From a virus: a stretch of DNA of 64,000 bases. The position numbers and the translations under genes were made by a program. The notes beneath the pieces were generated by a model. That model worked only from the letters and a program-made list of their open reading frames with translations, was not told the DNA's origin and ran no database searches. The stretch lies in IMG/VR virus record IMGVR_UViG_3300036820_000010, positions 20,581-84,580 of that record; one strand, 5' to 3'. The stretch's first letter is position 1. Each line of letters starts with the position of its first letter. Below, one piece after another: positions 28,475-57,426 of the stretch.

Positions 28475-28767
28475 CCGACTTCCCAGCCTAGAGCCTGCTC
28501 AGGGGATACTGCTGACTGCACTCGAACTCCGGGATACCTAGCATTACGAGACTTTTTGTACTTCCGACGAATCTCATCCCCAACCTCTTTGCCTGAAGTA
28601 GCAGTTCGAAAGGGACCGATCGGAGGAGACTCATGCCCCTCCTTATCCCAGATCATGGTCAAAACGTAGACGGTCACCTCCGAATCATCTCCTTCTGGAC
28701 GGGCCCGACCACTTGCCCGAAAGTCGGAGTACGACGCGCACCGTGAATCTCCTCGGTCGTCAACCAC
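28471..28767 (-). CDS. Hypothetical protein (likely start ~28677)
   Basis: Co-oriented; GTGA overlap with the upstream stop. Confidence 0.45.
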   Translation of the reverse strand: MVDDRGDSRCASYSDFRASGRARPEGDDSEVTVYVLTMIWDKEGHESPPIGPFRTATSGKEVGDEIRRKYKKSRNARYPGVRVQSAVSPEQALGWEVG

Positions 28768-30020
28768 AGGGTCGGAATCTTCGGGTCAACTGCTTGAGAA
28801 ACACTCCACTCCATGTCAGTGACGATGATGAGCCACTCGTAGTTACCTTCCTTGGCTATCTCGGCGATCGAGGGAGACAGGTCAGTTCCACCACGCCCTT
28901 GCCACTCTAGGGGAATCTGCATCGGGAAGTCAAAACGACTGAAGGTACGATCAGCACCCACGATCGTCCGCGTATCCGCCTGGCGCATGCGCACCTTGCA
29001 GTCAGGAAAGATCTGAAGCGCCCTCTCGATGAAGGTAATAGCCACCTGGCAGTCAGAAGAGTCCATCGACCCTGACGTGTCCACCAAGACCATACCCTCG
29101 CCCAATTCTCTAGCCCGAAGAGACGGAAGTATCACGTCACTCCGGTAGACACTCCTCCGGTTAGGCCGAGAGTACGAGGTGCGGGTCGGCGCGTACCGAG
29201 TCATGAACTGCTTCAAGAGAGACTCAACATCGATCTTCGCCTCGGTCTCGACCCTCGAAACTTCCTTAACCCAACCCGGAAGGTTCCCGCAGTTCTTCGA
29301 GGTCATCACCCCAGTCGCGACCCGGTCTTCCCACTCCTCCTTGGCCTGGGCGACGTTCTTCTTCTTCTGCGCGTCAGATCGATTGTCCTCGCCTGACTGA
29401 GACGACTCTGAACCCGGAGTAGTACTTTGGGCCTGACTCGTCTGCCCCTGCCTGTCACCCTCTCCCTCGGCCTTGCCTGAGATCGAAGGGTGCGGCATGA
29501 CTTCTCCGACCGAGACAGGAGTACCCTGGCCCTGGCCTTGGCCTTGACCTTGACCTTCCTGGCCTTTCATCTCCTCGGCTATCTTCTGCAAGAGATCCTT
29601 CAACTGCTCGTAGTACCACTCGGCCGAACGACCTGCCTCGACATCCCGGAACCTACCTACCTCGGGTACACAACCCAACCGCATCACGATTCCGGTCGGG
29701 TCGCAGTACTCCTTGATGTAGTAGTTCAGGGCGAGGTCAGCGGCCAGGTTCCACTCCTGGGCCGGGATCTGCCCGAACCTGAAGTGATGACCTAGGAACA
29801 GGTGACCCGCCTCATGCAGGATGATCTCCTGGACATCTCGAATCGACATCTTGTCGATGAAATCCGAGTTGTAGTACAGGTGAACTCCATCGGTCGCAGC
29901 CGTCGTGATCACGAGACTCCTGATCTCGACAACTTGCAACGCTGAGATCATGGCCGCGAAGTACGGGTGATGGTCGTAGACGTGATCGAAGCCTCTACGG
30001 ATTTTATCTCGTGCCTTCAT
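28674..30020 (-). CDS. DUF2201-type metallopeptidase-like plus VWA domain protein
   Basis: 'TAATDG', 'ILHEAGH..LGH', 'WNLAADLALN', MIDAS 'VDTSGSM', 'GRGGTD', 'TD'. Confidence 0.9.
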   Translation of the reverse strand: MKARDKIRRGFDHVYDHHPYFAAMISALQVVEIRSLVITTAATDGVHLYYNSDFIDKMSIRDVQEIILHEAGHLFLGHHFRFGQIPAQEWNLAADLALNYYIKEYCDPTGIVMRLGCVPEVGRFRDVEAGRSAEWYYEQLKDLLQKIAEEMKGQEGQGQGQGQGQGTPVSVGEVMPHPSISGKAEGEGDRQGQTSQAQSTTPGSESSQSGEDNRSDAQKKKNVAQAKEEWEDRVATGVMTSKNCGNLPGWVKEVSRVETEAKIDVESLLKQFMTRYAPTRTSYSRPNRRSVYRSDVILPSLRARELGEGMVLVDTSGSMDSSDCQVAITFIERALQIFPDCKVRMRQADTRTIVGADRTFSRFDFPMQIPLEWQGRGGTDLSPSIAEIAKEGNYEWLIIVTDMEWSVSQAVDPKIPTLWLTTEEIHGARRTPTFGQVVGPVQKEMIRR

Positions 30021-30074
30021 GCTTTAATTATAGTACATGCAGGAGGGGCCTGCACAGTTTTTCTAACTTAAATT

Positions 30075-30112
30075 GAGAAGAAGGAGACCCTCCTAGAGAA
30101 GGCCCCCCTCCT
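30075..30112 (-). terminator. Putative intrinsic terminator
   Basis: Minus-strand hairpin GGAGGGGGGCCTTCT-CT-AGGAGGGTCTCCTTCTT followed by a T-rich tail. Confidence 0.45.
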
Positions 30113-30128
30113 GAATTCTTAAGAAAAA

Positions 30129-30689
30129 CTACGGAGCAGTCGTCGTCCAAACTCCAGGCGTCGAGTCGAACCCCGAGTCGGCAGTCCAGTGAACGGTACT
30201 GACACTGACTCCGTTGGGCAGTTCGAAGGCGACTAGACCCTTCAAGGAAGTACCGGGCGTGAGGTTGAAGTCACCCCCATCGAAGTTGGTTCCCTCAGAC
30301 AGAGACCCGATATACTCCTGGTAGACCTGACCGTTGCTCCCGATTATCGTAGCGTCGTTGTTGGCATCGTCGTTGACGGTACCCGAGACCCCGGTCAGGG
30401 TGAACATAGCACCCACGAACCTATCTCCATTGTCAGGAACAGTGAACTCATCCGCTCCCTGGGCAGGATCGATGACCTGGGTGAGCTGCACGGTGTAGAC
30501 GTTCCCCTGGCTATCGGTCACCTGGAAGGTTCCACCGATTTGCTGGGGACCTGCGGGCGGAGTTGGAGTCGACTTGGCCTGAGACCCTGACTTAGGCGGG
30601 TTGACAGAAGCCGTCGGACTCACCGTCCCGCACCCGGCCACGAACAGGGCAGCGACAAAGGCTACCGCAATCACGATTATCTTGGTCAT
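30129..30689 (-). CDS. DUF4352-like lipoprotein (possible superinfection-exclusion / surface protein)
   Basis: Lipobox 'FVAGC'; 'GDRFVG', 'LTPGTSLKGLVAFELP'. Confidence 0.75.
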   Translation of the reverse strand: MTKIIVIAVAFVAALFVAGCGTVSPTASVNPPKSGSQAKSTPTPPAGPQQIGGTFQVTDSQGNVYTVQLTQVIDPAQGADEFTVPDNGDRFVGAMFTLTGVSGTVNDDANNDATIIGSNGQVYQEYIGSLSEGTNFDGGDFNLTPGTSLKGLVAFELPNGVSVSTVHWTADSGFDSTPGVWTTTAP

Positions 30690-30761
30690 TCGCTTTCGAC
30701 CTCCTAGGGTCATTCCGAGGTTACCTGGGCCAGAACTGTTCAAGAGGGGAAGCGAGGCCCC

Positions 30762-31628
30762 TTAGGCCTCGCTCTTGTCCCACCCACTGATGTCGTCGAG
30801 GATAGATCCTGCCTTGGACTGGAGACGCTCCTTGCCTCCCTCCTCCGACCGAACCTCCTCGGCCGTCATCCCGCCGAGTTCCTTCGAGACCTTCTGGATC
30901 AGAGCGGTGATCTTGGGGTCGTTGGTCAGGTTCAGGGCGGGCGCCTGCTCCAGAAGAGCGTTCAGGGACTCAAGAGTCGTCTTGTGAACCCTCTCCCCCT
31001 TCGCGATCTTCGAGACAGCGTCGACCAGACGGTGGACGATGTCAGACGTCGCCTGCGCGATCTGCTTCTGGGTGTTGGCCACGACCCGGTCGCGAATCTC
31101 GTCCTGCACTTCCTGGGACACGTGACGTAGACGAAAGTCCTTGGACGGAAGAGGGGTCTCTTCGGTCTCGAAGGCAAAAGCGCTATCCATCTTCTCGACA
31201 CTCGGGAAGGGAACATCTTCAGCGACCGAGGGTCCGACCCTCTCAAGGTAGTTCTGGACCAGCTCGTCCCGCTGCGAGATGACCTTCTGCGCCTCGTCCA
31301 GATACTCCTGTTCGTACTTGCGCATCTCCGACATGAACTCTTGGTAAGAAGTAATCGGGAGGATCCGGAAGTCCTCGGACCAGGGGAGAGTCTTCTCCTT
31401 GAAGTAAGCCTTGGCCGCAGTGTAGACCCGGTTCAAGGGCCCGAGAACCGTCCACTGGATTACCTGGACGTACCCCTTGACCGAGGCCTTGTCCGCCTCC
31501 AACGACTCCGCCGCCGCCGAGGTGACCGTCTTGCTCGAGGTCAGGACTCCAAGTTGCGTGATCCTGAGGCGAACCAGGATCGCATCCCGAGACAGATCGA
31601 ACGAAGAAGGCGAGTTCTGCACGTACAT
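30762..31628 (-). CDS. Helical protein (DUF3150-like), typical partner of phage MoxR-AAA/VWA genes
   Basis: 'AILVRLRI', 'TLPW...RILP', 'DFRL', 'LNLTNDP'; RBS AAGGAG. Confidence 0.6.
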   Translation of the reverse strand: MYVQNSPSSFDLSRDAILVRLRITQLGVLTSSKTVTSAAAESLEADKASVKGYVQVIQWTVLGPLNRVYTAAKAYFKEKTLPWSEDFRILPITSYQEFMSEMRKYEQEYLDEAQKVISQRDELVQNYLERVGPSVAEDVPFPSVEKMDSAFAFETEETPLPSKDFRLRHVSQEVQDEIRDRVVANTQKQIAQATSDIVHRLVDAVSKIAKGERVHKTTLESLNALLEQAPALNLTNDPKITALIQKVSKELGGMTAEEVRSEEGGKERLQSKAGSILDDISGWDKSEA

Positions 31629-31715
31629 GACTCCTTTTCTAGAATTCCGCTTAACATCTATTATTATAAGGCACTCAGGAAGAAACTGCAAGCAAAATCC
31701 TGACAAATTTAAGGA

Positions 31716-31756
31716 GAAAATAAAGAGACCGGACCCCCTAGGGGCCCGGCCTCCTT
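31716..31756 (-). terminator. Intrinsic terminator
   Basis: Minus-strand hairpin GAGGCCGGGCCCC-TA-GGGGGTCCGGTCTC plus TTTATTTT. Confidence 0.7.
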
Positions 31757-31769
31757 GTGATGGGGGGTC

Positions 31770-32231
31770 CTAGTTAGCCGGGTGTCCAGTATCCGGGAAA
31801 CCCGGAACCACAGGCGCTGTCTGCACCTGAGACCCGACAACTGCAGGAGTTCCCCCACCCGAGCCGGTTCCCGTCGTCTGCGTTGACGGGGGAGTCGGCG
31901 TCGAGGTCGGAGTTGGAGTAGAAGTTGGGACAGGCGTCGGAGTCGGAGTAGGCACAGGAGTTGGAGTAGCCGTCGGGGATGGGCAAGGGGTGGGCTTGAC
32001 GCAGTCGTGGTTGTTCCCACCCTGGTCATTTCCACCCTGCAGAATCACCCCATAAGTCTGACCCCCACAGTTCTTACCCCCGTTGCCTCCATTACCTCCC
32101 TGGCCACCGTTCCCCTGGTTGTTATTCCCACCGGAGAAGTTAGCACTCGCCGAGATAGAGAAGACAACTAAACCGACCAGGATTGCGGCCACCCCCAGGA
32201 TGACCTTGATTGACTTGAGACCTCTGATCAC
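31770..32231 (-). CDS. Secreted protein with G/N-rich segment, PT repeats and C-terminal FPDTG
   Basis: Signal peptide ending 'ASA'; (PT)n linker; RBS GAGGAGG. Confidence 0.7.
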   Translation of the reverse strand: MIRGLKSIKVILGVAAILVGLVVFSISASANFSGGNNNQGNGGQGGNGGNGGKNCGGQTYGVILQGGNDQGGNNHDCVKPTPCPSPTATPTPVPTPTPTPVPTSTPTPTSTPTPPSTQTTGTGSGGGTPAVVGSQVQTAPVVPGFPDTGHPAN

Positions 32232-32289
32232 TGCAACCTCCTCAGGTTTTCTATTCCGTACTGCCCCAGGATGATATCGGATCCACCAA

Positions 32290-32971
32290 CTTAGATTTTA
32301 AGGAGGGCACCCAAGATTTTTAGGCCTTGGGCGCCCGGAAGGAAGGGAGTCAACCTTGGTTAGGACCTCGACACCGAGATCTTCGATCAGGCCCGTCTGC
32401 CTAGGCACTAAGTGAAAAACAGTCAACCCTTAACGCAGAGTGCACTTCCGACTGGGGGTGTATAGTTTCACTCCTAGACCTGCTGCAGCATTTCAGCAGA
32501 AAGGCCCGATCGAAGTAGACAGTAAGAAGCGGGGAGCGAGATTCCTGAAAGCCAGAAAGTTAAGGAAAGGCAGTGTTTCGGGGTGAGAGTCCCCCCTACT
32601 AAGGGCCTTTCCCCGTCCCAACTCTACTCAATCTCAGCCGGACGACAGTGACCCCTAACTTCATCACCTGCCCGGGACTCCCCTGAGGCAGCTCGAGCTT
32701 ACCTCTTGCTGTCTACCTACCGGATTGACTTGTCACCTATTTCGGTTGGATAGACAGGCCTACTCATCCTCCCCGGGACACTCAAGTTGTAAACTAAGTC
32801 AACCCTAGATACCTGAGTAAGGGGGGAGTTTCGACACTTTCAGACTATCTACCCAACCCATCCGCAATCGAACTCGCGGACAAGGTGGAGGAAGCGCGGG
32901 TCCTATGACCAAAGACCCAAGCATGGGAACCTACCTTGCCTCCCCCACCTTGTCCGCGTATTCAACTGACA
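32290..32971 (-). ncRNA. Candidate large structured non-coding RNA (~680 nt)
   Basis: No ORF >=60 aa on the minus strand; TTGCAT-N17-TATAAT promoter immediately upstream; many long helices whose G-U pairs mostly favour the minus strand. Confidence 0.6.
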
Positions 32972-32977
32972 ACTATG

Positions 32978-33006
32978 ATTATAGCGCCACCAAGCCTCGA
33001 ATGCAA
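32978..33006 (-). promoter_or_regulatory. Sigma70-type promoter TTGCAT-N17-TATAAT
   Basis: -35 at 33006-33001, -10 at 32983-32978. Confidence 0.75.
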
Positions 33007-33015
33007 CCGAAATCC

Positions 33016-33282
33016 TCAACTCTTTTCGTGGGCGCCCAAGGCCTTAAGACTACCCTGAGGCAAAGACTCGATATCGATGATCGGACCTGCCTCACCCGCG
33101 GCAGAGATATCAGGCACTCCCTCAGCAATGACCAGAATCTCGTAGTCTAGCCTCATCCTCTGACCCACAGACACCCAAGCCTCACCCCCGCCTATCACCT
33201 TGACCAGAACTCGAGAGCCTTCGATCTTACGGATCTCGACTTCTGCGACCGCATGCAACTCCCCTGAGACCCCAGACCTCAT
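33016..33282 (-). CDS. Hypothetical protein
   Basis: RBS GGAGG; coupled ORF. Confidence 0.5.
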   Translation of the reverse strand: MRSGVSGELHAVAEVEIRKIEGSRVLVKVIGGGEAWVSVGQRMRLDYEILVIAEGVPDISAAGEAGPIIDIESLPQGSLKALGAHEKS

Positions 33283-33563
33283 CAGGACCTCCCGCTGTCA
33301 AGACTTGGAATATCAGGATGTCTTGAGAAGAACTCCTCGGAAGAGATCCTCAACAAGTGGAAGGAGACTACATCCTCGAGAAGGGAATAGTACCTGAGCA
33401 TCCATTCTTCTTGCCCGACAGCGATACCTTCCTCAACACCCTCCCGGTACCTCATCTCCTGGACTGTCTCGGGCCTCCTGATGACCAACTCATAATAGAC
33501 CTCAGGGTCAACCTCAACTACCCTGCCTGAGGAAAGATGCACAAAGTCTTTGTCCAGGGTCAT
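33282..33563 (-). CDS. Hypothetical protein
   Basis: MTLDKDF start overlapping the upstream stop. Confidence 0.5.
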   Translation of the reverse strand: MTLDKDFVHLSSGRVVEVDPEVYYELVIRRPETVQEMRYREGVEEGIAVGQEEWMLRYYSLLEDVVSFHLLRISSEEFFSRHPDIPSLDSGRS

Positions 33564-34588
33564 CGCCTCAGTTTGAACACCTGATCCTTGACCAGTAGGG
33601 GCTTGTCCTCTGGACCCTTGACGAACGGATCGATCCAGATCTGACGATGATCCTGCAGTGATGGGTACCACTGCTGCCTCCAGAATCCGCCTGTCGCACC
33701 CCCGACGATCCAGCGATGATCCCAGTTGACCCCGATCGGGTCATGGTCAGAATGGGGTCTCTTGGGAACTGCTCGACGCAGAGTGACCACTTGGATTTCC
33801 TGGACCTTAGACTTAGTCTTCCTCTCGATGCCCCTTCTGATCTGACGAGGCAAATGAGCAGTCTCACGGACTGCCACCCTCTGCTGGCACATAGCGAAGA
33901 ATGCCACCAAGACCAAGTAGTCTGGCTTAACTGACTCTTTCTGCCCCTCTTCCCTCTCACTCTCCTTTAGGGTCTTCCCGAATTCGAAGGCAGTAAAATG
34001 CAGGAGAGACAAACGAGGAAGTTGACCCAACATATCCGAGTGCCTCTCTAGGACATCCCGAAAGATCCCCTGGTTGACCTCGTCCAACGGGTCTTGCATG
34101 TCCGACCAGAACCCGACCAAGACCCCAAAACGTCCGTCTACCTCAGGGTACTGAACTGACTTCCAAGACATAGCGCAGGTCCTGCAAGTCTTTCCATGGA
34201 CCTCTTTGAAGGTCAAGTACTCTGACAGGATCATCACCCCGTCAGGAGAAGGCAAGTCTGACTCTAAGAGACGCTGGTCGTCCATCGACTCTGCCGCCTT
34301 CAAGAGGAGGTTAGACATCTCGCGAGTAACCAGATAGACAGGAGCGTCCCGAAAGGGACCTAAGACTCCCCCTGCCCAGGACTCGAAGTTGAAGTTAGTA
34401 CCTATCTTCGTGTTGAGAGAATCCAAAAACCCCTGGAAGACCCTGTGACCCAAAGAAGTCTTAGACCAAGAATAGAGATTAGTAACCAACGAAATCCCGT
34501 CAGCGGCCGTCCCCCACAAGGGGGGAGGCCCACTAACCAGAGAAGGCTTCTGACTCATGTCAGAACTGCTCAACCTTCTTCTGTCCAA
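33560..34588 (-). CDS. Conserved phage hypothetical protein (HRWxV..G.WR.Q motif)
   Basis: C-terminal 'DHRWIVGG..GFWRQQWYPS...IWIDPFVKGPEDKPL' resembles a motif seen in actinophage proteins. Confidence 0.65.
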   Translation of the reverse strand: MDRRRLSSSDMSQKPSLVSGPPPLWGTAADGISLVTNLYSWSKTSLGHRVFQGFLDSLNTKIGTNFNFESWAGGVLGPFRDAPVYLVTREMSNLLLKAAESMDDQRLLESDLPSPDGVMILSEYLTFKEVHGKTCRTCAMSWKSVQYPEVDGRFGVLVGFWSDMQDPLDEVNQGIFRDVLERHSDMLGQLPRLSLLHFTAFEFGKTLKESEREEGQKESVKPDYLVLVAFFAMCQQRVAVRETAHLPRQIRRGIERKTKSKVQEIQVVTLRRAVPKRPHSDHDPIGVNWDHRWIVGGATGGFWRQQWYPSLQDHRQIWIDPFVKGPEDKPLLVKDQVFKLRR

Positions 34589-35672
34589 AGTCGACCGACA
34601 CCCTAGATGCAGAAGGCCTGTTGTTCTTGGTCTTCCACAAGTGGTACTGAGGAGCAGTCAGAGTGCGCGGGATGTCTTCGACCAGACGGCGGACCAAGTA
34701 GGTCGAGGGCTCTTCTGGCCAGCGCATCCCGTAGACCAGAATTGCGTTAACTGCGTCCTCGTTACCCTTAGCGTAGTTGACCAGAGACAGAGTCAGAGAG
34801 TACAGGAGGGAAGGTTCCTTCGGGATCTTGACCGACTCAGGGGAGTCCAGGATCTCTTGAATCTGAGGGACCTCCTCGAACATCTTCTTGTACTGTAGAA
34901 ACTCGGTCGCCGCACCCTCACCGATGCAACCCGCCATCAGCGCCTTGGTGATGTCCTTGGTCTCGAACTTACCTTCTAAGGAGAGTTCCTCGGCTACCCC
35001 CAGGATCCTATCCGCGTACTCGAAGGACCGTGGAGTAGCGTAGGCCATGTCGGTAACGTCTGGCTTCTCCTTCGCTGCCCCGTTCGCCCAGACCTCCTGA
35101 CGAAAGGCAGCAAACCCCTGCAGTAAAGGAGAAACATCGCCCAACTTCTGGGCCCAAGCAAGAAAAGAGCGAAGAGCATCCTGGGACCCAATCTCGATGT
35201 AGAGGTGACACATGCGGTTGGCCGCCGCCTTCGACAGAGGAGTAGTCCCGATGTCAGAAGTCGAGTTCCCAGCCAAGATCACGAAGGCGTTCTTGGAGAG
35301 TTCGTGCCCATTCAACTTCCGGTCCAGGATCAACTGCAGGGCAGTATTCTGAACGTCGAGGCGAGCCCGGTCGAACTCATCGAGGAACACGATCGCCTTC
35401 TCGTCAGTATCGAAGGGGAGCGTCTGAGGCATGAGGTACGTGAGGACCTTGTGCCCATCCTCCGCATCCTGGGGATAGGGAATCCCGCCTAAGTCAGAAG
35501 GTTCCTTGTCCGAGAGTCGGTAGTCGTAGATCTTGTAGTCCAGACGCTCCGCGATCTGCCTGACTACCGAGGACTTCCCGATCCCAACCGGACCCCACAG
35601 GGCAACCGGGACCTGAGCGACGAAACAAGTCACCGTCGCACGCTCCGCCTGCTCCAAGGTGATGAACTGCAT
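34560..35672 (-). CDS. MoxR-like AAA+ ATPase
   Basis: 'LWGPVGIGKS', 'DLGGIP', 'FLDEFDRA', 'LAGN', 'ANRM', 'TPRSF'. Confidence 0.9.
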   Translation of the reverse strand: MQFITLEQAERATVTCFVAQVPVALWGPVGIGKSSVVRQIAERLDYKIYDYRLSDKEPSDLGGIPYPQDAEDGHKVLTYLMPQTLPFDTDEKAIVFLDEFDRARLDVQNTALQLILDRKLNGHELSKNAFVILAGNSTSDIGTTPLSKAAANRMCHLYIEIGSQDALRSFLAWAQKLGDVSPLLQGFAAFRQEVWANGAAKEKPDVTDMAYATPRSFEYADRILGVAEELSLEGKFETKDITKALMAGCIGEGAATEFLQYKKMFEEVPQIQEILDSPESVKIPKEPSLLYSLTLSLVNYAKGNEDAVNAILVYGMRWPEEPSTYLVRRLVEDIPRTLTAPQYHLWKTKNNRPSASRVSVDFGQKKVEQF

Positions 35673-35730
35673 ATTTGAACTCCTGCCCTGGACTCGAGCG
35701 GGCTTCTCGCCGGGTTCCTTGATATCTATT

Positions 35731-35759
35731 ATTATAGGCACTCAGACACAGGAACGCAA
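35731..35759 (-). promoter_or_regulatory. Promoter TTGCGT-N17-TATAAT; same class at 31663-31691, 30027-30055 and 46677-46705
   Basis: Exact 17-bp spacing in all copies; the 31.7-kb and 35.7-kb copies share CTGAGTGCC(T)TATAATAATAGAT. Confidence 0.7.
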
Positions 35760-56766: not shown

Positions 56767-57032
56767 AGGGACTCCCGGATTTGAGTTGATTTTCCCTTAG
56801 TTTAGTAGAGAATCTGCCTGTTGACAGTGATAATTACTGTGAATGTAAGTTTACCAGAGGTCAACTCACAGCCCACAGAGACCCTCCACAGTATTTTCCA
56901 CAGTCGCTTCAGTGGCCAGAAAGTTACTGTTCCAAGCCGGGGCCTAGAGAGTCGGGGCGCCAACGCCCGGAGCCAAACTGCAGCCACTTCTTCCGCCACC
57001 CCGGGGTGGGCCACCCTTGGTTTTTCCATAGT

Positions 57033-57100
57033 ACCTTATGACTGTTAAGCACATGGAATGCTTAACAGTCATAAGGTCATAGGACTTAACAGTCATAAGG
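57033..57100. repeat. 19-bp perfect inverted repeat plus a third direct copy
   Basis: ACCTTATGACTGTTAAGCA (57033-57051) / TGCTTAACAGTCATAAGGT (57059-57077); CTTAACAGTCATAAGG again at 57085-57100. Confidence 0.85.
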
Positions 57101-57426
57101 CCTCATCCTGTTCAGGTATAAGAAGGCAAGGTGAGGAGGGTTAACTCAAGGCGCCTGCCTGCCTTGTCCTCGCGCTCGCCTCATCCTTATGACCTCAGGC
57201 GCCTCGTCCTTATCCTGCCTGCCTCGTCTTTGTTAAACACATGACTTCATTTAAGTTATACCTAGGCACTCCTCATCCTTATCCCAACGATGACTACGAA
57301 CCTTATCCCAGTCCCCATCAGGCACAGGCCTGACATCATACCCACAGTCAAGGCGCCAACAAGACAAGGCATATTTCTACCCTAGACCCCTTGACATCTA
57401 GGTGCCAATTGTCTATGATTATAGAT

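What the first reader, a model, noticed from the sequence alone, without database searches (positions are those of the whole stretch)
32290..33006. Candidate novel ~680-nt phage non-coding RNA with its own promoter, long helices and repeated loop motifs
Seen: a ~700-bp stretch with no credible ORF in an otherwise gene-dense genome, starting right after a perfect TTGCAT-N17-TATAAT promoter on the minus strand (start ~32971). On that strand it folds into long helices. These include a 5' stem CAGUUGAA..CGCGGACAAGGUGGGGGAGGC / GCUUCCUCCACCUUGUCCGCG..UUCGAUUG (32865-32969), GGUUGGGUAGAUAG / CUGUCUAUCCAACC, GUAGACAG / CUGUCUAC, GGAAAGGC / GCCUUUCC, CUUCGAUCGGGCC / GGCCUGAUCGAAG, and a 3' hairpin GGGCGCCCAAG / CUUGGGUGCCC. 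Most imperfect pairs are G-U on this strand. GGUUGACU occurs three times (+ strand 32348, 32421, 32797) with one complementary AGUCAAUCC (32722), and GUCCCGGG (self-complementary CCCGGG) occurs twice. Known: phages carry large structured ncRNAs (GOLLD, ROOL) that oligomerise through loop-loop contacts. Inference: this is a large functional RNA, possibly a new class, using alternative or intermolecular pairings. Alternatively it is a giant regulatory leader for the secreted PT-repeat gene.
Basis: partly seen in the sequence, partly recalled or inferred. Interest (0 to 1): 0.85.

Follow-up and report, generated by a model that had tools for sequence, protein, structure and literature searches.

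The report
Orphan 670-nt structured phage RNA
A soil phage carries a gene-free stretch of about 670 bases with its own promoter that folds, on one strand only, into an unusually stable and strongly conserved RNA. It matches no known RNA family, so it is a credible new large non-coding RNA, but its function is still a guess.

Summary
Window 32300-32971 (minus strand) has no ORF under code 11, TAG=Q or TGA=W. It lies just downstream of TTGCAT-N17-TATAAT-CATAG, one of 10 matches to a recurring phage promoter motif.

Evidence that it is a functional RNA:
- It is the best-folding 686-nt window in the 84.6-kb genome (z -7.9 against shuffles).
- The excess structure is strand-specific: without the 5' hairpin, z is -5.3 on the minus strand and -1.7 on the plus strand, with 39 G-U pairs against 1 A.C mismatch.
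- A second soil variant has 2 substitutions in 686 nt. About 16 are expected at the synonymous rate of the neighbouring genes. All three changes leave the fold intact.

New here:
- Long-range complementarity (15 + 11 bp) brackets the element, but only in read-through transcripts.
- The element sits in a 2.85-kb lineage-specific insertion. This insertion splits a conserved MoxR-DUF3150-DUF2201 module and also carries an AcrVA2-like gene.
- Predicted access to the downstream gene's ribosome-binding site is the same with or without the RNA.

No Rfam family matches, and no homologue was found anywhere, so covariation could not be tested.

Best reading: an autonomous stable structured ncRNA, possibly doubling as the leader of the secreted 153-aa gene. 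Its function and any oligomerisation are untested. The scan had also noted this same stretch in an overlapping window.

The parts
32978..33006 (-). Promoter P_nc: TTGCAT-N17-TATAAT, followed by CATAG. Predicted start about 32971 (+/-2).
   Evidence: The extended -10 motif TATAATCATAG (up to 1 mismatch) matches 10 times in the window (0.18 expected). At 8 of the 10 sites an ORF starts within 2-98 nt; this site is one of two where none does.
32300..32971 (-). ORF-free structured RNA of about 670 nt (domains D1 to D4).
   Evidence: no ORF. (folding z -7.9; best window in the genome; strand-specific). (39 G-U against 1 A.C). (2 substitutions in 686 nt against about 16 expected at dS).
32864..32970 (-). 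D1: 5' hairpin made of 9-bp and 21-bp helices capped by two small hairpins. It begins 6-8 nt after the predicted start.
   Evidence: pair probability 0.97-1.00. (z -10.6). Its length makes it a plausible substrate for a double-strand-specific RNase; this is inference.
32744..32858 (-). D2: long irregular hairpin with a 14-bp basal helix. GGUUGACU copy 1 sits in the apical loop.
   Evidence: z -4.2. Both the X2 bulge change (32758) and the 1-nt deletion (32787) fall at unpaired positions here.
32348..32730 (-). D3: multi-branch domain closed by AGUCAAUC (32730-32723) pairing with GGUUGACU copy 3 (32355-32348). It contains D3a (GUAGACAG/CUGUCUAC), D3b (13-bp helix, GGUUGACU copy 2) and the hairpin GAUCUCG-GUGU-CGAGGUC.
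   Evidence: closing helix probability 0.94. (z -2.9). X2 change at 32518 turns G-C into G-U in the D3a closing helix.
32305..32336 (-). D4: 12-bp 3' hairpin GGGCGCCCAAGG/UCUUGGGUGCCC with tail UCCUUAAAAUCU. There is no real U-tract.
   Evidence: z -4.4. The terminator scan did not call it.
33030..33062 (-). Upstream bracket arms (UGCCUCAGGGU and AGGCCUUGGGCGCCC). They lie inside the 3' end of the 88-aa ORF, upstream of P_nc.
   Evidence: 18-nt inverted repeat, 94% complementary, 693 nt apart. (15-bp helix probability 0.98; 11-bp helix probability 0.91). (4 of 2000 shuffles and 0 of 508 natural windows do as well).
32262..32336 (-). Downstream bracket arms: GGGCGCCCAAGGCCU (32336-32322, also the 5' arm of D4) and AUCCUGGGGCA (32272-32262).
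   Evidence: The first arm can pair either with the upstream arm or with 32316-32305, so the two pairings are alternatives.
31770..32231 (-). 153-aa ORF with a signal-peptide-like N-terminus, a G/N-rich region and PT repeats. SD GAGGAGG at 32245-32239. It is the only ORF in the P_nc transcription unit.
   Evidence: Pfam and PHROGs give only low-complexity hits. Codons 5-8 carry a second copy of AAGUCAAUC (repeat D3).
31722..31756 (-). Intrinsic-terminator-like hairpin with a U-rich tail that ends the unit. The next promoter, TTGCAG-N17-TATAAT at 31691-31663, follows.
33560..34558 (-). p342, an AcrVA2/FinQ-like protein and the first gene of the insertion. It is followed by small ORFs at 33282-33671 and 33016-33282 that have no relatives.
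   Evidence: pLDDT 87; Foldseek E 6e-5 to AcrVA2; VIA Z 10.7, 220 aligned residues. (no relatives of the small ORFs).

Best explanation
A host-type (sigma-70-like) promoter drives a structurally autonomous RNA of about 670 nt, read from the minus strand. It folds into four domains and about two thirds of its bases are paired. A 30-bp 5' hairpin begins a few bases after the start site and a 12-bp hairpin sits at the 3' end, so both ends are capped.

I infer that these caps, together with the G-rich compact fold, make the RNA long-lived and resistant to Rho and to exonucleases.

Transcripts that read through from the upstream MoxR-ATPase operon contain two extra segments inside the 3' end of the 88-aa gene. 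These pair with the RNA's 3' flank (15 + 11 bp). They enclose the whole element in a stalk and displace the local 3' hairpin. I read this as an rRNA-like processing or insulation stalk. It would let the element be cut out of, or folded apart from, the polycistronic mRNA, and it would leave the downstream 153-aa gene with a short leader.

The element lies in a lineage-specific accessory insertion next to an AcrVA2-like gene. The most likely role is therefore a trans-acting accessory (host-takeover or counter-defence) RNA, and some transcripts also serve as the 5' part of the 153-aa gene's mRNA.

Shown here: the promoter motif, absence of an ORF, strand-specific structure, purifying selection, the bracket complementarity and the insertion context.
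Inferred: the transcript ends, processing, stability and trans action.
For: - Promoter motif recurs 10 times (0.18 expected). ORFs normally start within 2-98 nt of it, but not here.
- No ORF under three genetic codes. A natural 1-nt deletion is tolerated.
- Folding z is -7.9, and this is the best of 456 genome windows.
- Without D1, z is -5.3 on the minus strand and -1.7 on the plus strand. There are 39 G-U pairs against 1 A.C mismatch.
- Between two natural variants the RNA differs at 0.29% of sites. Flanking genes show dS about 2.3% (16 changes over 699 sites) and dN about 0.33%. Poisson P is about 2e-5 against dS.
- The three changes are G-C to G-U, a bulged C and an unpaired A.
- Bracket helices have probabilities of 0.98 and 0.91. 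Only 4 of 2000 shuffles and 0 of 508 natural windows do as well.
- SD and start-codon accessibility is 0.38-0.42 with the RNA, with read-through, or with a short leader. The element therefore does not engage the translation start.
- In more than 15 relatives ATPase, DUF3150 and DUF2201 are contiguous. Here 2.85 kb is inserted between the first two.
- p342 in that insertion has the AcrVA2 fold.
Against: - No homologue was found in any collection reached, so there is no covariation test.
- All structure is thermodynamic prediction.
- The 3' hairpin lacks a U-tract and no promoter separates it from the 153-aa ORF. A discrete 670-nt species is therefore unproven, and the RNA may simply be a 5' UTR.
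- The low-divergence tract runs from 31437 to 33147, beyond the RNA. A recent local recombination or sweep could explain part of the conservation.
- Perfect helices of 13-21 bp are unusual for ornate catalytic or scaffold RNAs.
- Trans action and any link to defence rest on genomic context alone.
Confidence: 0.45

Rival explanations
1. The whole element is a giant cis-regulatory 5' leader of the 153-aa secreted PT-repeat gene. Alternative pairings would set how much transcription or translation reaches the ORF, depending on which promoter made the transcript. The candidate pairings are three GGUUGACU copies against AGUCAAUC in the RNA and in codons 5-8 of the ORF, the three-way choice at the 3' hairpin, and an anti-SD-like CCCUCCUU.
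For: - No promoter lies between the RNA and the ORF, and the ORF is the only gene before the terminator.
- A 16-nt repeat, AGGUNNCAAGUCAAUC, occurs both in the RNA and at the start of the ORF.
- The upstream arm and 32316-32305 compete for the same partner, as in attenuators.
- CCCUCCUU can pair with GAGGAGG (read from the sequence).
Against: - Predicted SD and start-codon accessibility is unchanged by the presence of the RNA.
- About 240 base pairs and 670 nt under uniform purifying selection is far more than any known leader needs.
- The 3' hairpin has no U-tract, so a terminator/antiterminator switch is doubtful.
- No riboswitch or leader family matches.
Confidence: 0.3
2. It is a relic or passenger of a mobile or selfish DNA element, such as a MITE-like insertion with terminal inverted repeats or a decayed intron. 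It would be structured because of its inverted repeats and have no function of its own for the phage.
For: - 18-nt inverted repeats flank the promoter plus RNA, 693 nt apart.
- The region is a lineage-specific insertion.
- It is an orphan sequence.
Against: - The excess structure is strand-specific, and G-U outnumbers A.C by 39 to 1. Decaying DNA repeats would give symmetry.
- Divergence is about 8-fold below dS.
- There is a single copy in the genome and none in related phage records.
- No target-site duplication is evident.
- The bracket is bipartite, with a 7-nt against 49-nt asymmetry, unlike terminal inverted repeats.
- No group I or II intron model matches, even at E up to 10.
Confidence: 0.1
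3. It is a DNA-level element of the replication module, either an origin with GGTTGACT iterons or an R-loop primer-RNA origin of the ColE1 or T4 type.
For: - It lies among replication-type genes (helicase, primase, polA region).
- GGTTGACT occurs 3 times locally, and all 7 copies in the window are on one strand.
- A strong promoter reads into a G-rich strand, with the most negative GC skew of the window.
Against: - There is no AT-rich unwinding segment (GC 0.53).
- Cumulative GC skew does not turn here.
- The structure is RNA-strand-specific.
- A better iteron-bearing candidate lies at 56.8-57.3 kb.
- The polar 9-mer GGTGTCGAG switches orientation between 32.4 and 41.5 kb, not within the element.
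- Relatives lack the region altogether.
Confidence: 0.07

Closest known systems
GOLLD and ROOL (large ornate RNAs, often phage- or prophage-borne; form RNA-only cages, PMC12286853)
   Same: Size class of 580-800 nt, a phage setting, no ORF, a multi-domain fold and unknown function.
   Different: No match to either covariance model. Not next to tRNA genes, since the window has none. Long perfect helices of 13-21 bp rather than many short ornate ones. Oligomerisation was not tested. Known from only two near-identical sequences.
Processing stalks of rRNA operons and RNase III sites in phage T7 and lambda polycistronic transcripts (from my own knowledge)
   Same: Sequences on both sides of a stable RNA pair over hundreds of nucleotides and enclose it in a stem within the primary transcript. 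Long dsRNA hairpins also lie between genes.
   Different: Cleavage is only inferred. The stalk is 15 + 11 bp with a large asymmetric loop. The element also has its own internal promoter, whose transcripts lack the 5' arms. The phage encodes no RNase III.
Phage morons (promoter-gene-terminator cassettes inserted between conserved genes)
   Same: A promoter, one small secreted-protein gene and a terminator, inserted inside a module that is contiguous in relatives.
   Different: A 670-nt structured, conserved RNA lies between the promoter and the gene. Classical morons have short leaders.
Type III toxin-antitoxin loci (ToxIN-like)
   Same: The order is promoter, non-coding RNA, hairpin, ORF.
   Different: There is no tandem repeat array. 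The ORF is a secreted low-complexity protein, not an endoribonuclease. It has no PADLOC hit.

Membership tests
GOLLD / ROOL / OLE / HEARO / raiA and other large Rfam ncRNAs | Match to the family's covariance model (sequence plus consensus structure) | tested here: not met
   cmscan of the whole window at gathering scores gave 0 hits. At E up to 10 on 32100-33200, only generic miRNA-hairpin hits on D1 appeared, far below their gathering scores.
Group I / group II introns | Catalytic-core model match (P3-P9; domain V/VI) and insertion within a host gene | tested here: not met
   No Rfam hit even at E up to 10. The flanking ORFs are separate genes with their own stop, RBS and start. The element contains a promoter.
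RNase P RNA, tmRNA, tRNA-like | Model or ARAGORN match | tested here: not met
Cis-regulatory leader / attenuator | Lies between a promoter and the regulated ORF | tested here: met
   Promoter at 33006-32978, ORF start at 32231, and no other promoter-like site between them.
Cis-regulatory leader / attenuator | Alternative structures that occlude the SD/start codon or form a terminator | tested here: inconclusive
   SD accessibility is the same with and without the element. A three-way alternative pairing does exist at the 3' hairpin, but that hairpin has no U-tract.
Replication origin | Iterons plus an AT-rich unwinding element, and a skew or polar-motif switch | tested here: not met
   GC is 0.53 with no AT-rich tract. 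Cumulative skew is monotonic across the region. The structure is strand-specific.
MITE-like mobile element | Terminal inverted repeats, target-site duplication, multiple copies | tested here: not met
   An inverted repeat is present. However, there is a single copy in the genome, none in 12 related phage records, and no duplication at the ends (sequence). Host genomes could not be searched.
rRNA-like processing stalk | Flanking complementary segments that enclose the RNA in the primary transcript | tested here: met
   Helices of 15 bp and 11 bp with probabilities of 0.98 and 0.91 in the read-through fold. Only 4 of 2000 shuffles and 0 of 508 natural windows do as well.
rRNA-like processing stalk | Endonucleolytic cleavage in the stalk | not testable with these tools
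   This needs end-mapping of transcripts.
AcrVA2 / FinQ family (neighbouring gene p342) | Shared fold over most of the protein | tested here: met
   Model pLDDT 87. Foldseek E 6e-5 with probability 1.0. VIA Z 10.7 over 220 residues, against 2.4 for the next unrelated row. Anti-defence activity was not tested.

The most novel reading that the evidence does not exclude
This is a new class of large phage-encoded structured RNA. It would be made both from its own promoter and by excision from operon transcripts through an rRNA-like bracketing stalk. It would act in trans as an RNA-based host-takeover or counter-defence factor, within an accessory island that also carries an AcrVA2-like gene.
Probability: 0.25. 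Interest if true: 0.8.

Novelty: new variant of a known kind. Interest (0 to 1): 0.62.

Why it matters
Only a handful of bacterial and phage RNAs of 500 nt or more are known (GOLLD, ROOL, OLE and a few others), and their functions remain largely open questions. Another one would give a second handle on what such RNAs do during infection. This candidate has clean anatomy: a defined promoter, capped ends, a bracketing stalk and a place in an accessory island. It is short enough for chemical probing and cryo-EM, and the cassette can be cloned without knowing the host. The dual route to the same RNA, by its own promoter and by a processing stalk in read-through transcripts, would also be an unusual piece of phage gene organisation.

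Tried and rejected
Homologue hunt (all negative):
- blastn 'distant' search against 50,697 phage records.
- Exact or degenerate pattern of the D1 arm in IMG/VR.
- A three-motif spacing pattern in IMG/VR gave 5 hits, all chance matches by blastn and nhmmer.
- nhmmer and blastn against 28 loci around ATPase relatives from IMG/VR, JGI metagenomes and GTDB genomes.
- BLAST against the 12 complete related virus records.
- Relatives of p342, p88 and p129 in IMG/VR: one distant p342 hit with no RNA beside it, and none for the other two.
- The scan's own index.

Tools and limits:
Long contigs encoding the 45-53%-identical ATPases (P0002-P0030) could therefore not be fetched.
- The look-up of sequencing runs listed no RNA holder, only two soil DNA runs, one of which is probably the source.
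- No covariance model was built, because a single-sequence model would add little over BLAST.

Readings considered and dropped:
- Recoded ORF.
- Reverse-transcriptase-linked RNA such as a retron or DGR: no RVT_1 in the genome.
- IscB or HEARO guide RNA: the 'HNH endonuclease' PHROG hit at 28674-30020 is a DUF2201 metallopeptidase/VWA protein by Pfam.
- Cas12a repeat mimic: there is no UCUAC-N4-5-GUAGA hairpin.
- T-arm mimic at GUUCGAUUG: the closing pair is wrong and ARAGORN found nothing.

Technical note: evaluating the mirrored structure on the opposite strand gave meaningless energies, because ViennaRNA scores non-canonical pairs oddly. That result was not used.

Full report
**Setting.**
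- The window is bases 20581-84580 of an 84.6-kb IMG/VR virus record, estimated 88% complete.
- The DNA occurs in two soil metagenome runs. One of them is probably the source.
- The stretch in question lies on the minus strand inside a long leftward operon. That operon starts at a promoter in front of a MoxR-type AAA ATPase at 34560-35741.

**Check of the observation.**
- The sequence reads TTGCAT-17 nt-TATAAT at 33006-32978.
- The generic sigma-70 scan did not call it, because the -35 matches only 3 of 6 positions.
- The motif is nevertheless a recurring element of this phage. TTGC..-N17-TATAAT occurs 4 times against 0.01 expected. The extended -10 TATAATCATAG (up to 1 mismatch) occurs 10 times against 0.18 expected.
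- At 8 of these 10 sites a long ORF starts 2-98 nt downstream, and several of those mRNAs look leaderless. Only the site at 32973 and one at 57413 have no ORF behind them.
- From 32971 down to about 32300 no frame exceeds about 80 codons under code 11, TAG=Q or TGA=W.

**Structure and statistics.** The minus strand folds to -303.1 kcal/mol (z -7.9). The plus strand gives z -3.8. I folded 456 windows of 686 nt across the whole genome and regressed energy on composition. This stretch has the largest excess, -50.7 kcal/mol against -32.5 for the next window. The fold has four domains:

| Domain | Window coordinates | Description | z |
|---|---|---|---|
| D1 | 32970-32864 | 9 + 21 bp hairpin | -10.6 |
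| D2 | 32858-32744 | Long irregular hairpin | -4.2 |
| D3 | 32730-32348 | Closed by AGUCAAUC pairing with the third GGUUGACU | -2.9 |
| D4 | 32336-32305 | 3' hairpin | -4.4 |

- With D1 removed, the remaining 564 nt still give z -5.3 on the minus strand (0 of 60 shuffles as good). The plus strand gives only -1.7.
- The minus-strand fold has 39 G-U pairs and one A.C mismatch. The plus-strand fold has 14 G-U and 7 A.C.
- This asymmetry points to selection on an RNA read from the minus strand. A DNA palindrome, origin or decaying inverted repeat would not produce it.

**Selection.**
- Run X2 carries a variant of the phage.
- Over the contig that spans 29597-33418 I classified the listed differences. 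There are 16 synonymous changes over about 699 synonymous sites (dS about 2.3%) and 7 replacement changes (dN about 0.33%).
- The 686-nt RNA has 2 substitutions (0.29%) and a 1-nt deletion. About 16 substitutions would be expected at dS, giving a Poisson P of about 2e-5.
- The three changes are:
  - a C-to-U that turns G-C into G-U in the GUAGACAG/CUGUCUAC helix;
  - a change in a bulged C;
  - loss of one unpaired A.
- Caveats: this is a comparison of only two sequences, and the low-divergence tract extends from 31437 to 33147. A recent local exchange therefore cannot be excluded.

**What is new.**

*Bracket.*
- In transcripts that enter from upstream, 33044-33030 pairs perfectly with 32336-32322 (15 bp, probability 0.98).
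- In the same transcripts, 33062-33052 pairs with 32272-32262 (11 bp with two G-U pairs, probability 0.91).
- The upstream arms lie in the last codons of the 88-aa gene, in front of the promoter.
- The 32336-32322 arm is also the 5' half of D4. The upstream arm and the local 3' half therefore compete for it.
- Duplex energy between the two flanks is matched by 4 of 2000 shuffles and by 0 of 508 natural windows.
- Such enclosure of a stable RNA by its flanks is how rRNAs are presented to RNase III. Cleavage here is my inference.

*Lineage-specific insertion.*
- In more than 15 distant relatives the ATPase, DUF3150 and DUF2201/VWA genes are directly adjacent.
- In this phage 2.85 kb is inserted between the ATPase and DUF3150. 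It holds p342, two small ORFs, the RNA and the 153-aa gene.
- Promoter, RNA, 153-aa ORF and terminator (31756-31722) form a moron-like cassette. The next promoter follows at 31691-31663.

*AcrVA2-like neighbour.*
- p342 has the AcrVA2/FinQ fold: pLDDT 87, Foldseek E 6e-5, VIA Z 10.7 over 220 residues.
- The AcrVA2 family is described as widespread on mobile elements and is usually found in bacteria without Cas12a (bioRxiv 10.1101/2022.11.29.518452).
- The insertion therefore looks like an accessory or anti-defence island.

*Autonomy from the downstream gene.*
- The predicted unpaired probability of the 153-aa gene's SD and start codon is 0.38-0.43. This holds whether the transcript starts at P_nc, upstream, or just before the SD.
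- The element therefore behaves as a self-contained fold.

**Comparison with known families.**
- No Rfam family reaches its gathering score in the window.
- At E up to 10 only generic hairpin models hit D1.
- There are no tRNA or tmRNA genes, and the phage has no reverse transcriptase or RNase III gene.
- The element is thus not a member of GOLLD, ROOL, OLE, HEARO, the intron families, RNase P or tmRNA.
- It resembles GOLLD and ROOL only in size class and phage setting.

**Homologues.**
- None was found by any route.
This blocked the most promising route, the long contigs of ATPase relatives at 45-53% identity.
- Covariation, the standard proof of a structured RNA family, is therefore missing.

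**Rival readings.**
- *Giant leader for the 153-aa gene.* This stays plausible because no promoter separates the two. A 16-nt repeat containing AAGUCAAUC also recurs in codons 5-8 of the ORF. and the sheer amount of conserved structure argue against a purely cis role.
- *Origin of replication.* This is unlikely. There is no AT-rich tract, the skew does not turn and the structure is strand-specific. A better iteron-rich candidate lies at 56.8-57.3 kb. The polar 9-mer GGTGTCGAG (26 copies against about 1 expected) changes orientation between 32.4 and 41.5 kb.
- *MITE-like relic.* This is contradicted by the G-U asymmetry, the single copy and the strong conservation.

**Verdict.** This is a real, promoter-driven, strand-specific, conserved structured RNA element of about 670 nt with no known relatives. 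I put 0.45 on an autonomous stable ncRNA that may also serve as a leader, 0.30 on a purely cis-acting leader, and the rest on DNA-level or relic readings. Function and oligomerisation are open.

Noticed in passing
window 33560-34558 (-): p342 (332 aa as called) has the AcrVA2/FinQ fold (Foldseek E 6e-5; VIA Z 10.7 over 220 residues). Its family shares a near-invariant C-terminal motif, SHRW..GHWRxQWYPS..IWIxPFVKGP. More than 120 homologues carry no Pfam domain.
   Followed up: partly
window 28674-35741 (-); loci L003, L004, L008, L014, L017, L019, L020, L022: The MoxR-type AAA ATPase, DUF3150 and DUF2201 (metallopeptidase-like plus VWA-like) genes form a conserved contiguous three-gene phage module. 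In this phage it is split by a 2.85-kb insertion, and by phrog_806 between DUF3150 and DUF2201. The PHROGs label 'HNH endonuclease' for the DUF2201 protein looks wrong.
   Followed up: partly
window 12518, 17092, 31658, 32973, 35726, 37192, 46672, 57413, 58896, 62552: A promoter class with the extended -10 TATAAT-[CAG]AT[ATG]G occurs 10 times against 0.18 expected. In several cases the ATG lies 2-4 nt after the motif, which suggests leaderless or nearly leaderless mRNAs.
   Followed up: partly
window 56790-57420 (-): A second ORF-poor stretch lies behind an exact TATAATCATAG. It is moderately structured (z -4.4 on the minus strand, -3.5 on the plus strand). It is full of ATAAGGAYGAGG-type direct repeats and a CCTTATGACTGTTAAG / CTTAACAGTCATAAGG inverted repeat. 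This looks like an iteron or operator region, possibly the origin, at a divergent early-gene junction.
   Followed up: partly
whole window: The 9-mer GGTGTCGAG occurs 26 times against about 1 expected. It is strongly polar: minus strand up to 32.4 kb (one exception) and plus strand from 41.5 to 45.2 kb. One copy forms the hairpin GAUCUCG-GUGU-CGAGGUC inside the RNA (32381-32364).
   Followed up: partly
whole window: All 7 copies of GGTTGACT in the window lie on the minus strand (2.8 expected on both strands together). This includes copies inside plus-strand genes at 632, 6451 and 10080.
   Followed up: no
L010:1399-2029; L024:3944-4559; L006:3395-4064 and L007:3509-4119: Distant relatives carry ORF-free stretches of about 600 nt, 4-6.5 kb upstream of the ATPase gene. 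L010 has TAGGGAAC iterons in both orientations plus an AT-rich palindrome, which looks like an origin. L024 has a 42-nt inverted repeat and folds very well on both strands (z -9 and -16). The L006 and L007 stretches are 73% identical to each other. None resembles the RNA studied here.
   Followed up: partly
window 30762-32297 (-): The TAG stop of the 153-aa ORF is in frame with the DUF3150 ORF, so reading TAG=Q would fuse them into 511 aa. A terminator and a promoter lie between the two, so this is probably coincidence.
   Followed up: no
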